From Escherichia coli (lineage in GTDB: Bacteria; Pseudomonadota; Gammaproteobacteria; Enterobacterales; Enterobacteriaceae): a DNA stretch of 64,000 bases. This document shows positions 15,501 to 18,500 of the stretch, piece by piece. The position numbers are program-made. The DNA lies in the NCBI RefSeq assembly GCF_024298765.1, contig NZ_CP101210.1; one strand, written 5' to 3'. Numbering within the stretch: the first letter of the stretch is position 1; each line of letters opens with the position of its first letter.

Positions 15501-18500
15501 TTGTGAAAGATCGGCATCGGTTAAACCGAAGGTTTTCAGGTACGAGGCGCTGTCGAAAACCACGGAGAGAGAGTAGATAAAAATCCCGTGGATAATCATC
15601 AAAAAGTAGATAACCCCGAGGAAAATTCCCCAGTTCTTCCCCAGGTAATGACTGATAATATCGGTGTAGTCATTACAGGAATCGCTTTCAGAAAGGGTTT
15701 TTAAATAAATGTCCTGCACTACCCAGGTGGCAGGATAAGCAATGATCGCTGCGGTAATAAATACCCAAATTCCCTTCAAGCCAATTTGTACTGGCATCAG
15801 CACGGTTCCGGCACCAATCGCCATGCCTATGCATAATAAAACCCAGCCGAAGTCGTAGCGTGTAAACGGCATTTTCTGATCGTGTTTCGGTAGTGTGTTG
15901 TGCTGCATAAAGTCCTGTCCAGAAAGAAGTCGGCCTCGCAAAAATGAATAAACCCAGTTTCTCTTGCGCAACAGGTGGAGAAGTCGAATACGCAGTATGT
16001 AAAAAATGAGGCAACAGATTCACTGGGGAGGTCGCGAGGAGGCGCAATTCTACAAAATTGCGCATTTCACTACCAGTCTGGAGTCAGCCCGGATATGAAC
16101 TGCAACTAATGCAAATAAAGAAATTAAGCTGGAAGGCATCACGCAATGAGGAAGATTGCCGGGTGCTGACGGTAAAAAGCAATCGTAAAATCAGCGGCAA
16201 GCCGGAAAGGTTCCGGTGAGGCGCAATGTTGCGGGGGCTTAATCCCTGGTGGCATTGGTTGCTGGAGAGAGAAAACCCCCGCACGTTGCAGGTATGCACC
16301 TGACAACATCACGGGGGCTAATCTTGAACCTAGACCACTCAAGAATAGCCGCGAAACGTTGTCATTACAACACAGGCGGCTATATGACGCTCGCAGAACT
16401 GGGCATGGCCTTCTGGCATGATTTAGCGGCTCCGGTCATAGCTGGCATTCTTGCCAGTCTGATCGTGAACTGGCTGAACAAGCGGAAGTAACGTGTCAGA
16501 CGGGCGTCAGGCTGCCGTAATGGCAATTTGCGCCCGGATCAGGCCGCAGGGATAAAACTCTGCGGCCTTTTTCGTAAGAAAAATGCAACGGTTGCAAGCG
16601 GATAATATTCTGCGGAATGCACAGCACAGAGTGAAGAAGTGACGGATTTCGGAGCTGAAAAACAGTCGTAGAATCAGCGGCAAGCCGGAAAGGTTCCGGT
16701 GAGGCGCAATGTTGCGGGGGCTTAATCCCTGGTGGCATTGGTTGCTGGAGAGAGAAAACCCCCGCATATTGCAGGTATGCACCTGACAACATCACGGGGG
16801 CCATTCTTGAACCTACACAACTCAAGAATAGCCGCGAAACGTTGTCATTACAACTCAGGCGGCTATATGACGCTCGCAGAGCTGGGCATGGCCTTCTGGC
16901 ATGATTTAGCGGCTCCGGTCATTGCTGGCATTCTTGCCAGCATGATCGTGAACTGGCTGAATAAGCGGAAGTAACGTGTCAGACGGGCGTCAGGCTGCCG
17001 TAATGGCAATTTGCGCCCGGACCAGGCCGCAGGGATAAAACTCTGCGGCCTTTTTCGTAAGAAAAATGCAACGGTTGCAAGCGGATAATATTCTGCGGAA
17101 TGCGCAGCACAGAGTGAAGAAGTGATGGATTCCGGAACAGAAAAACAGTCGTAGAATCAGCGGCAAGCCGGAAAGGTTCCGGTGAGGCGCAATGTTGCGG
17201 GGGCTTAATCCCTGGTGGCATTGGTTGCTGGAGAGAGAAAACCCCCGCACGTTGCAGGTATGCACCTGACAACACCACGGGGGCCATTCTTGCATCTAGA
17301 CCATTCAAGAATAGCCGCGAAACGTTGTCATTACAACTCAGGCGGCTATATGACGCTCGCAGAGCTGGGCATGGCCTTCTGGCATGATTTAGCGGCTCCG
17401 GTCATTGCTGGCATTCTTGCCAGCATGATCGTGAACTGGCTGAATAAGCGGAAGTAACGTGTCAGACGGGCGTCAGGCTGCCGTAATGGCAAGTTGCGCC
17501 CGGATCAGGCCGCAGGGATAAAACTCTGCGGCCTTTTTCGTAAGAAAAATGCAACGGTTGCAAGCGGATAATATTCTGCGGAATGCGCAGCACAGAGTGA
17601 AGACGTGACGGATTCCGGAGCAGAAAAACAGTCGTAGAATCAGCGGCAAGCCGGAAAGGTTCCGGTGAGGCGCAATGTTGCGGGGGCTTAATCCCTGGTG
17701 GCATTGTTTGCTGGAGAGAGAAAACCCCCGCACGTTGCAGGTATGCACCTGACAACACCACGGGGGCCATTCTTGAACCCAAACAACTCAAGAATAGCCG
17801 CGAAACGTTGTCATTACAACTCAGGCGGCTATATGACGCTCGCAGAGCTGGGCATGGCCTTCTGGCATGATTTAGCGGCTCCGGTCATTGCTGGCATTCT
17901 TGCCAGCATGATCGTGAACTGGCTGAACAAGCGGAAGTAACGTGTCATGCGGGCGTCAGGCTGCCGTAATGGCAATTTGCGCCCGGATCAGGCCGCAGGG
18001 GTGAAACTCTGCGGCCTTTTTCGTTCTTATTGCGGGTAAGGCACCCAGTCGCCGCCGTTCAGGCGAACGTACGGTTTATCCTGGTATTGAATAACTACTG
18101 CATTTGAGTTCTCGGAGACCGGTGCTGTTTGTGGCAACCCACTGGTGAGTTTTTTCCAGTCAACATTGTCTTCGGAGAAAATCTTGCCATCAAGAACGCG
18201 AACCACCAGATCGGAGATAGCCAGGAAGCTGCTCGGTTGGTCGATGACAATCGGTGCCCCCTGATGTGGTGCCTTCATGCCGAAGAATTTCACCCCAACG
18301 GGGACGTCTGTGATAGACGGGCTAGGGATATCACGTAGGCCAGATACCTGCATTCTGTCGCCCTTCAGCGCGCCGCCGTGTTCCGGCACCACGACCACCA
18401 TCACTTTACGACCCGATTTCTCCAGTTCAGTAAAGAAGGCGTCCAGTTCATCAAAGAATTTCTGCGCCCGCGCTTTGTAATCCGCTGTTTTGCTGACGCC

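What the first reader, a model, noticed from the sequence alone, without database searches (positions are those of the whole stretch)
16160..18022. Four tandem ldr/rdl type I toxin-antitoxin units between yhjV and bcsG
Seen in sequence: four near-identical direct repeats with a 483-bp period, each carrying a -10-like box (TAAAAT in unit 1, TAGAAT in units 2-4), a long leader, a 35-codon ORF and a strong terminator hairpin. The peptide is MTLAELGMAFWHDLAAPVIAGILAS[L/M]IVNWLNKRK, with Leu in copy 1 and Met in copies 2-4. The opposite strand of each leader holds a short promoter-plus-terminator unit consistent with an Rdl antisense RNA. Established knowledge: Ldr peptides are membrane-depolarising toxins repressed by Rdl RNAs. 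As I recall, K-12 has a single copy (LDR-D) at this locus and a three-copy array elsewhere. Inference: this strain has a four-copy array here, probably from unequal recombination. Tandem arrays like this are often collapsed or left unannotated in assemblies.
Basis: partly seen in the sequence, partly recalled or inferred. Interest (0 to 1): 0.6.

Follow-up and report, generated by a model that had tools for sequence, protein, structure and literature searches.

The report
Four-copy ldrD/rdlD toxin-antitoxin array
This is a real four-copy tandem array of the well-known E. coli LdrD/RdlD small-toxin and antisense-RNA module; about one in six complete E. coli genomes has the same array already annotated, so it is ordinary.

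Summary
Tandem Repeats Finder reports one array at 16175-18024, with period 483, 3.8 copies and 96% matches. Each unit has an intact 35-codon ldr ORF that matches Pfam Ldr_toxin at E=6e-26. Each unit also has a 66-nt rdlD match on the opposite strand (Rfam RF01813, 80-90 bits against a gathering score of 50), placed 49 nt upstream of the ldr ATG exactly as in K-12. A strong intrinsic terminator closes each unit. The flanking genes are yhjV and bcsG.

All four units are of the LDR-D type. The same 2.3 kb is 100% identical in at least 30 independent complete E. coli genomes, and RefSeq annotates four Ldr-family toxin genes there. It is therefore neither an assembly artefact nor unannotated. Only the rdl RNAs lack annotation in the non-K-12 record whose full feature table I read.

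Copy number at this locus varies from 1 to 5. An evenly spaced sample of 60 records gave about 38% with one copy, 8% with two, 33% with three, 17% with four and 2% with five. Lineage-specific ldr duplication was described in 2010.

Two minor points emerged. The inter-unit spacer is missing from K-12 but present in a non-coli Escherichia, so the array looks old and K-12's single copy is probably a collapse. Differences between units cluster in the Rdl 5' tail.

Verdict: already known, low interest.

The parts
16175..18024 (.). Tandem LDR-D array: three full 483-bp units plus a last unit that lacks the spacer
   Evidence: TRF reports period 483, 3.8 copies and 96% matches. The sequence is 100% identical in at least 30 complete E. 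coli genomes.
14637..15908 (-). yhjV, the left flanking gene
   Evidence: ORF list. The RefSeq annotation of the identical locus in strain 104 was mapped onto the window.
18027..19706 (-). bcsG, the right flanking gene
   Evidence: A 559-aa ORF, annotated as bcsG in the identical RefSeq locus. It is 98.8% identical to K-12 bcsG.
16186..16191 (+). ldr -10-like box of unit 1 (TAAAAT). Units 2-4 have TAGAAT at 16669-16674, 17152-17157 and 17635-17640.
   Evidence: Read directly from the sequence. The position is conserved in K-12 LDR-D (TAGAAT) and in LDR-A/B/C (TAGTAT). The -35 is poor, and the scan finds no site with 9 of 12 matches. The transcription start near 16199 is inferred.
16199..16576 (+). 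Inferred ldr-1 mRNA of about 378 nt: a 185-nt leader, the CDS, the 3' UTR and the terminator. Equivalent spans are 16682-17059, 17165-17542 and 17648-18025.
   Evidence: The 5' end is inferred from the -10 box and the 3' end from the terminator. The predicted fold is -178 kcal/mol with z = -7.7.
16226..16303 (+). Conserved 25-codon leader ORF (MLRGLNPWWHWLLERENPRTLQVCT). Other copies lie at 16709-16786, 17192-17269 and 17675-17752.
   Evidence: It is intact in most D-type units and in two of the three K-12 A/B/C units. Whether it is the published 'ldrX' could not be settled.
16270..16335 (-). rdl-1 antisense antitoxin RNA
   Evidence: Rfam RF01813 at 90.4 bits (gathering score 50), model positions 1-66 of 66. 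The fold has a 5' tail, a long G-C hairpin and a U-tail at -31.7 kcal/mol, z = -4.9.
16342..16370 (-). Candidate rdl-1 promoter: TTGTAA (16370-16365), N17, TATTCT (16347-16342), with 6 nt to the Rdl 5' end
   Evidence: Read on the minus strand. It matches 8 of 12 positions, below the scan threshold. This is inferred.
16384..16491 (+). ldr-1 CDS, 35 aa, Leu26 variant (RefSeq WP_000170738.1)
   Evidence: Pfam PF13940 Ldr_toxin at E=6.2e-26, positions 1-35 of 35.
16541..16573 (+). Intrinsic terminator of unit 1. The others lie at 17024-17056, 17507-17539 and 17990-18022.
   Evidence: An 11-bp stem with 8 G-C pairs, followed by TTTTT.
16577..16668 (.). Inter-unit spacer, also at 17060-17151 and 17543-17634. 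It carries the upstream promoter region of the next unit.
   Evidence: Beyond the shared tract next to the -10 box, it has no match in the K-12 LDR-D or LDR-A/B/C loci. It is nearly invariant among the 29 spacers taken from the sampled E. coli arrays and is present in Escherichia sp. E1V33.
16753..16818 (-). rdl-2
   Evidence: RF01813 at 79.7 bits. Fold at -30.8 kcal/mol.
16867..16974 (+). ldr-2 CDS, Met26 variant (WP_001295224.1)
17236..17301 (-). rdl-3
   Evidence: RF01813 at 81.8 bits. Fold at -30.1 kcal/mol.
17350..17457 (+). ldr-3 CDS, Met26 variant
17719..17784 (-). rdl-4
   Evidence: RF01813 at 84.6 bits. Fold at -30.1 kcal/mol.
17833..17940 (+). ldr-4 CDS, Met26 variant

Best explanation
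The region holds four complete, probably functional, LDR-D-type ldr/rdl type I toxin-antitoxin modules in tandem between yhjV and bcsG.

Shown here: each unit carries an intact 35-codon Ldr ORF, a full-length rdlD-family antisense gene, and a strong terminator that insulates it from the next unit.

Inferred from sequence and from K-12 literature: each unit is transcribed from its own weak promoter into a roughly 375-nt mRNA with a 185-nt leader. That mRNA encodes a 35-aa inner-membrane peptide that kills or arrests the cell when over-made.

A 66-nt Rdl RNA is made from the opposite strand of each leader, at positions -114 to -49 relative to the ldr ATG. Rdl pairs perfectly with its own mRNA, and the duplex is cut by RNase III. 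Translation of ldr is blocked indirectly. The published proposal is hok/sok-like coupling to a leader ORF called ldrX, and it is still unproven.

The predicted full-length mRNA also buries the ldr ribosome-binding site and start codon in pairing with the 3' UTR, which would keep it inert. This is a prediction only.

Copy number at the locus is an ordinary polymorphism in E. coli, ranging from 1 to 5. It is generated by unequal homologous recombination between 483-bp units. The four-copy state is one common allele.
For: Array and anatomy. Family tests: Pfam Ldr_toxin at E=6e-26 and Rfam rdlD at 80-90 bits for all four copies.

The Rdl-to-ATG distance of 49 nt and the synteny match the experimentally characterised K-12 ldrD/rdlD locus. 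The units are 85-94% identical to K-12 LDR-D and 67-69% identical to LDR-A/B/C.

The same array is identical in at least 30 complete genomes and is annotated as four Ldr-family toxin genes. Copy numbers of 1, 2, 3, 4 and 5 were seen at this locus.

Literature: LdrD overproduction is toxic and RdlD co-expression relieves it, and the ldrX coupling model is unconfirmed (PMC4147584). ldrD and rdlD form an RNase III-processed duplex and both RNAs are seen on Northern blots (PMC7373196). Lineage-specific duplication of ldr loci and variable Ldr counts per genome are reported (PMC2887945).

All four Rdl RNAs fold into the same shape, with a 5' tail, a hairpin and a U-tail. The ldr mRNA fold has z = -7.7, with the translation start region paired to the 3' UTR.
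Against: There are no expression data for this strain, so transcription starts and promoter activity are inferred. The promoter scan finds no site with 9 of 12 matches on either strand.

The pairing between the translation start region and the 3' UTR rests on invariant sequence and shows almost no covariation.

The conserved 25-codon leader ORF ends 80 nt before the ldr ATG. Only its 3' third is covered by Rdl, so simple mok/hok-style coupling is not evident from the sequence.

Deletion of ldrD or rdlD in K-12 gave no change in the proton-gradient (pH-equilibration) assay reported in PMC11997105, so the physiological role is unknown.
Confidence: 0.92

Rival explanations
1. The four copies are an assembly artefact: a mis-expanded or mis-joined repeat, with a real locus that has fewer units.
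For: Tandem 483-bp repeats at 96% identity are hard for short-read assemblers to resolve. I have no reads for this window.
Against: The 2301-bp query that spans both unique flanks is 100% identical, in a single aligned piece, in at least 30 independent genomes of the complete-genome collection from different laboratories and hosts. The units also differ at 25 positions, which anchors each one.
Confidence: 0.02
2. The array is partly decayed. One unit works and the others are silent or non-toxic relics carried along by hitch-hiking.
For: Decay does occur elsewhere. Unit 1 of strain CE10 has a frameshifted ldr. Unit 1 in this window has a different -10 box (TAAAAT) and the Leu26 peptide. Promoters are weak by consensus.
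Against: In the window all four units keep an intact ORF, a full-length Rdl above the Rfam gathering score, the Rdl hairpin and the terminator. Only 6 of the 25 positions that differ between units fall in the CDS, and just one amino-acid difference results (L26 versus M26). Both peptide variants recur in many strains as RefSeq non-redundant proteins.
Confidence: 0.1
3. The four units are not redundant. They are four partly orthogonal toxin/antitoxin pairs, and each Rdl discriminates its own ldr mRNA through a diverged 5' tail, as Sib RNAs discriminate among ibs mRNAs.
For: Across 39 units from 13 loci, variable sites cluster at 16319-16339, which covers Rdl nt 1-17 and 3 nt upstream. That is 11 of 21 columns, against 47 of 384 in the unit core, with a scan P of about 0.0004. 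The window's four Rdl RNAs differ pairwise at 4-6 positions, mostly in the unpaired 5' tail. Cognate-only repression is documented for Sib/Ibs (PMC2943612, abstract).
Against: Mismatches amount to only 4-6 of 66 nt, and the 49-nt remainder is nearly identical, so cross-pairing is likely. The cluster may simply mark the least constrained stretch, since it is unpaired in Rdl, non-coding, and lies between the rdl -10 box and the hairpin. The units sampled are not independent.
Confidence: 0.2

Closest known systems
E. coli K-12 LDR-D (ldrD/rdlD, b4453/b4454; Kawano et al. 2002)
   Same: It sits at the same locus between bcsG and yhjV. It has the same 35-aa peptide, differing only by F3L, with M26L in addition in unit 1. 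The Rdl position 49 nt upstream of the ATG, the terminator and the -10 position are all the same. Unit identity is 85-94% over the comparison span and about 95-96% over the 401-bp core.
   Different: There are four tandem units instead of one. A roughly 92-bp inter-unit spacer is present that K-12 lacks. K-12's unit is a mosaic of sites typical of unit 1 and of units 2-4.
E. coli K-12 LDR-A/B/C array (kdsA-chaA locus)
   Same: It is also a tandem array of ldr/rdl modules with the same architecture. The leader and 3' UTR sequences are highly conserved.
   Different: It lies at a different locus and has a 535-bp period rather than 483. The peptide subgroup differs (MTLAQFAM.FWHDLAAPILAGIITAAIV.WWRNRK). 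Unit identity is only 67-69%, and the spacers are unrelated.
Four-copy LDR-D arrays already in RefSeq (for example E. coli strain 104, NZ_CP029164.1, and APEC O78:H4 strains)
   Same: They are 100% identical over 2301 bp including both flanks, and four CDSs are annotated as 'type I toxin-antitoxin system toxin Ldr family protein'.
   Different: Nothing differs. The window appears to come from this lineage.
hok/sok (with mok) type I toxin-antitoxin system
   Same: The published working model for ldr/rdl is taken from it. Shared features are a long leader, an antisense RNA that does not cover the toxin's ribosome-binding site, and a predicted inert, compactly folded full-length mRNA.
   Different: The toxin family is different. 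The Rfam sok model scores only 26-30 bits against a gathering score of 59 on the ldr leader. The conserved leader ORF does not overlap the ldr start.
ibs/sib tandem type I modules
   Same: They are tandemly repeated cis-antisense toxin modules in intergenic regions of E. coli, and their copy number varies between strains.
   Different: Sib covers the whole ibs ORF. Cognate discrimination has been shown for Sib but not for Rdl.

Membership tests
Ldr/Rdl (LDR) type I toxin-antitoxin system | A 35-aa hydrophobic Ldr peptide that matches Pfam PF13940 | tested here: met
   PF13940 Ldr_toxin at E=6.2e-26, positions 1-35 of 35, for the Leu26 peptide. The Met26 peptide differs by one residue and is annotated by RefSeq as an Ldr family protein (WP_001295224.1).
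Ldr/Rdl (LDR) type I toxin-antitoxin system | A cis-encoded antisense RNA of about 66 nt (Rdl) opposite the ldr 5' leader, not overlapping the ribosome-binding site or start codon | tested here: met
   Four full-length RF01813 hits score 79.7-90.4 bits against a gathering score of 50. Each has its 5' end 49 nt upstream of the ldr ATG, as for K-12 rdlD and ldrD.
Ldr/Rdl (LDR) type I toxin-antitoxin system | An Rdl structure with a single-stranded 5' tail, a long G-C-rich hairpin and a U-tail | tested here: met
   All four fold this way at -30 to -32 kcal/mol with z from -3.6 to -4.9. This agrees with the Rfam consensus structure.
Ldr/Rdl (LDR) type I toxin-antitoxin system | A long-leader ldr mRNA that ends at an intrinsic terminator | tested here: inconclusive
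   The terminators are clear. The 5' ends are only inferred from a conserved -10-like box, and no promoter reaches the scan threshold.
Ldr/Rdl (LDR) type I toxin-antitoxin system | Peptide toxic on overexpression, with toxicity relieved by the cognate Rdl | not testable with these tools
   This is known for K-12 LdrD/RdlD from the literature. It has not been measured for the F3L or F3L+M26L peptides.
LDR-D subgroup (as opposed to LDR-A/B/C) | Location between yhjV and bcsG, and higher identity to K-12 LDR-D than to LDR-A/B/C | tested here: met
   Synteny is shown. Identity is 85-94% to LDR-D against 67-69% to LDR-A/B/C. The peptides are 33-34 of 35 identical to LdrD.
Fst/Ldr superfamily | A conserved Trp after the transmembrane helix followed by a charged C-terminus, and a PXXXG motif within the helix | tested here: met
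   Read directly from the peptide: P17-VIA-G21, then W30 followed by LNKRK. The signature is as described in PMC7472228 and PMC2887945.
hok/sok family (considered for membership; works-like only) | A match to the sok/hok RNA models, and a mok-like leader ORF that overlaps the toxin start and is targeted by the antisense RNA | tested here: not met
   RF01794 scores 26-30 bits against a gathering score of 59. The conserved 25-codon leader ORF ends 80 nt before the ldr ATG. The in-frame ATG at -90 inside the Rdl target is not conserved across units.

The most novel reading that the evidence does not exclude
The four tandem units could be functionally distinct. Under this reading, the excess of variable sites in the Rdl 5' tail and its target reflects selection for orthogonal cognate Rdl/ldr pairs. 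The array would then be a set of independently releasable toxins rather than redundant copies, and copy-number polymorphism would change the number of independent switches.
Probability: 0.15. Interest if true: 0.4.

Novelty: already known. Interest (0 to 1): 0.1.

Why it matters
It matters little beyond bookkeeping. The finding correctly recognises a known toxin-antitoxin family from raw sequence.

The work does give a quantitative picture of the LDR-D locus as a common copy-number polymorphism of 1 to 5 units, and it suggests that K-12's single copy is probably the derived state.

There is one practical annotation point. The four rdl antitoxin RNAs are missing from the RefSeq record with the identical array that I read in full, although Rfam detects them easily.

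The one thread with some biological interest is whether the clustered variation in the Rdl 5' tail makes the tandem units orthogonal. That bears on the still-unsettled mechanism of Rdl repression.

Tried and rejected
NCBIfam gave no hit for either Ldr peptide or for the leader ORF, so family membership rests on Pfam and Rfam instead.

The sigma-70 scan found no promoter on either strand. The promoter assignments therefore stay as inference from conserved -10-like boxes.

I could not establish which leader ORF is the published 'ldrX'. Kawano 2012 and Gerdes & Wagner 2007 are not held in the library. Reviews say ldrX overlaps the ldr translation start region, but no conserved out-of-frame ORF does so here.

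I looked for the origin of the inter-unit spacer. It has only a weak, gapped resemblance to the left flank at 16131-16192 (local score 23, not convincing). Apart from the shared tract next to the -10 box, it has no match to the K-12 LDR-A/B/C or LDR-D loci.

The alignment fold of 38 distinct ldr mRNAs kept the pairing between the translation start region and the 3' UTR. However, only 4 of 112 pairs changed on both sides, so the structure is neither supported nor refuted by covariation.

The plasmid hits are not mobile ldr modules. The one I examined is a captured chromosomal chaA-ldr-kdsA segment.

The tool's count of places covering at least 80% of the query cannot be used to count four-copy arrays, because single-copy loci also reach about 90% coverage through stacked pieces. 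I used the evenly spaced sample of 60 records instead.
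Full report
**Observation**

The stretch 16175-18024 is a single tandem array with period 483, 3.8 copies, 96% matches and no indels (TRF). Each unit contains a 35-codon ATG-initiated ORF, at 16384-16491, 16867-16974, 17350-17457 and 17833-17940. 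Copy 1 is MTLAELGMAFWHDLAAPVIAGILASLIVNWLNKRK, and copies 2-4 have Met26.

The -10-like boxes are as described. TAAAAT lies at 16186-16191, and TAGAAT lies at 16669-16674, 17152-17157 and 17635-17640. Each unit ends in an 11-bp hairpin with 8 G-C pairs followed by T5. The scan found 8 terminator-like sites against 2.3 expected. The flanking ORFs are yhjV (14637-15908, minus strand) and bcsG (18027-19706, minus strand).

**Identity**

The Leu26 peptide matches Pfam PF13940 (Ldr_toxin) end to end at E=6e-26. On the opposite strand of every leader there is a full-length match to Rfam RF01813 (rdlD). These matches lie at 16270-16335, 16753-16818, 17236-17301 and 17719-17784, and they score 79.7-90.4 bits against a gathering score of 50.

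The 5' end of each Rdl lies 49 nt upstream of the ldr ATG. That is the same distance as between the annotated rdlD and ldrD in K-12 MG1655, where the pair also sits between bcsG and yhjV.

The window's units are 85-94% identical to K-12 LDR-D and 67-69% identical to LDR-A/B/C. All four are therefore LDR-D type. All four Rdl RNAs fold into the same shape, with an unpaired 5' tail, a long G-C hairpin and a U-tail, at -30 to -32 kcal/mol and z from -3.6 to -4.9.

**How common it is**

A 2301-bp query that spans both unique flanks is 100% identical, in a single aligned piece, in at least 30 complete E. coli genomes. Many of these come from poultry, including APEC O78:H4 strains, and others come from pig, dog, human and river water. 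In 61 records the best match is at least 99% identical. RefSeq annotates four 'type I toxin-antitoxin system toxin Ldr family protein' CDSs there, as WP_000170738.1 once and WP_001295224.1 three times. This excludes an assembly artefact and shows that the array is already annotated.

In the full feature table of strain 104 no rdl ncRNA is annotated, in contrast with K-12.

An evenly spaced sample of 60 of the 5438 matching records showed 23 with one copy (including K-12 and O157:H7), 5 with two, 20 with three, 10 with four and 1 with five. The remaining record was a plasmid. The three-copy and five-copy classes were checked by fetching individual loci. About one complete E. coli genome in six therefore has four units here.

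Fozo et al. 2010 had already reported that ldr-rdl loci are tandemly duplicated and evolve by lineage-specific duplication and loss. They also reported that Ldr/Fst counts differ between genomes, for example 4 in O157:H7 EDL933, 5 in S. flexneri 301 and 10 in S. sonnei Ss046 (PMC2887945).

**Direction of change**

The units are separated by a spacer of about 92 bp (16577-16668, and the equivalent positions in later units). Apart from the tract next to the -10 box, this spacer has no counterpart in K-12's single-copy locus or in LDR-A/B/C.

A simple duplication of a K-12-like locus cannot create such a spacer. The spacer is almost invariant among the 29 spacers in the sampled E. coli arrays. 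A scan of one genome per species found it in Escherichia sp. E1V33. That genome has a two-copy array with period 483 in the same dppF-yhjV-[ldr x2]-bcsG context. Its flanking genes are only 89-95.5% identical to the window, against 96.6-98.8% for K-12.

The multi-copy arrangement is therefore probably older than E. coli. Single-copy loci such as K-12's are probably collapses by recombination between units. K-12's unit is also a mosaic of sites typical of unit 1 and of units 2-4. This is an inference, because recombination between lineages is not excluded.

**Mechanism**

From the K-12 literature, LdrD overproduction is toxic and co-expression of RdlD relieves it. [quoted passage not shown] Repression has been proposed to act, as in hok/sok, through a leader ORF called ldrX, and this is unconfirmed (PMC4147584; PMC8167048). 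The ldrD and rdlD RNAs form a duplex processed by RNase III, and both RNAs are detectable (PMC7373196).

In the window, a 25-codon leader ORF (16226-16303 and its repeats) is intact in most D-type units and in two of the three K-12 A/B/C units. However, it ends 80 nt before the ldr ATG, and only its 3' third lies under Rdl. An in-frame ATG at -90, inside the Rdl target, is not conserved. I could not determine which of these is 'ldrX'.

The inferred 378-nt mRNA folds far better than shuffles, at -178 kcal/mol with z = -7.7. In that fold the Shine-Dalgarno sequence and start codon pair with a 3' UTR segment, and a short 5' segment pairs with the 3' UTR.

A consensus fold of 38 distinct D-type and A/B/C-type mRNAs keeps these helices. 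The UTRs are much more conserved than the CDS between the two subgroups. There is almost no covariation, though, so an inert fold-back mRNA remains a prediction.

Promoters on both strands are weak by consensus. A candidate rdl promoter is TTGTAA-N17-TATTCT at 16370-16342 on the minus strand.

**A feature not in the finding**

Across 39 LDR-D units from 13 loci, variable columns cluster at 16319-16339. This stretch covers Rdl nucleotides 1-17 and the 3 nt between the rdl -10 box and the transcription start. It holds 11 variable columns of 21, against 47 of 384 in the unit core, with a scan-statistic P of about 0.0004.

The window's four Rdl RNAs differ pairwise at 4-6 positions, mostly in the 5' tail. 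This could be relaxed constraint. It could also be selection for cognate discrimination, as shown for Sib/Ibs (PMC2943612). I rate the second reading at about 0.15-0.2.

**Verdict**

The feature is a known family, at its known locus, in a copy-number state that is common, already deposited and annotated, and anticipated in the literature. Novelty: already known. Interest: 0.1.

Noticed in passing
window 16319-16339 (and +483, +966, +1449): Sites that differ between units cluster in the Rdl 5' single-stranded tail and the 3 nt upstream of its start. Across 39 LDR-D units, 11 of 21 columns vary, against 47 of 384 in the unit core (scan P about 0.0004). This may reflect relaxed constraint or cognate-pair discrimination.
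   Followed up: partly
window 16577-16668, 17060-17151, 17543-17634; L015 3683-4566: The inter-unit spacer is absent from K-12's single-copy LDR-D locus. It is nearly invariant among E. coli arrays and is present in a two-copy array in Escherichia sp. E1V33. This suggests the array is ancestral and that single-copy loci are collapses.
   Followed up: partly
window 16235-16239 equivalent (G5 run in the leader); five units among the other sampled loci, probably including L004 and L014: In five units from other strains, an extra G in the leader G-run shifts the frame of the 25-codon leader ORF. In four of them this fuses it in frame to ldr, giving a predicted 88-aa product. This could be real slippage or a homopolymer sequencing error.
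   Followed up: no
L005 4645-6324, L006 4645-5487, L010 1462-1935, L011 1462-1935: The adjacent bcsG gene is annotated as a pseudogene in 4 of the 13 sampled strains, through an internal stop, a truncation or a frameshift. In ETEC4069 it is truncated and joined to a bcsC fragment.
   Followed up: no
L010 805-891: Unit 1 of E. coli CE10 has a frameshifted ldr, annotated as a shortened 28-aa protein. This shows that individual units can decay.
   Followed up: no
L003 (RefSeq NZ_CP029164.1) versus L001 (K-12): The RefSeq record of strain 104, which carries the identical array, lists the four ldr CDSs but no rdl ncRNA. K-12 has rdlD annotated. Rfam detects all four rdl genes well above the gathering score.
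   Followed up: yes
window 16233-16386, 16716-16869, 17199-17352, 17682-17835 (+): Each ldr leader gives a weak match to the Rfam sok model RF01794, at 26-30 bits against a gathering score of 59. It is below threshold and the four hits are not independent. It may echo the proposed similarity between hok/sok and ldr/rdl.
   Followed up: no
L016 (NZ_JABWSY010000055.1, 503 nt): A 503-nt contig with coverage 0.66 in a 'Bacillus sp.' assembly is an E. coli-type LDR-D junction (ldr, terminator, spacer, next leader). It is almost certainly contamination.
   Followed up: yes
L017 (plasmid p23AR0151A, NZ_CP195449.1, 119638-125001): A 195-kb E. coli plasmid carries a chromosomal segment (chaC-chaB-chaA-ldr-kdsA-sirB1-sirB2-prmC) with a single LDR-A/B/C-type unit. 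In all, 27 ldr-like places lie on plasmids.
   Followed up: partly
window 52928-53041 (-), 7889-8022 (+), 6463-6536 (+), 8116-8196 (-), 10432-10474 (-), 58821-58892 (-): Other Rfam matches above the gathering score in the window are GadY, RtT, a tRNA, naRNA4, ES036 and ES205. None was examined.
   Followed up: no
window 16199-16576 (+): The ldr 5' leader and 3' UTR are far more conserved between the LDR-D and LDR-A/B/C types than the coding region is. The predicted fold pairs the ldr Shine-Dalgarno sequence and ATG with the 3' UTR, at z = -7.7. There is almost no covariation with which to test this.
   Followed up: partly
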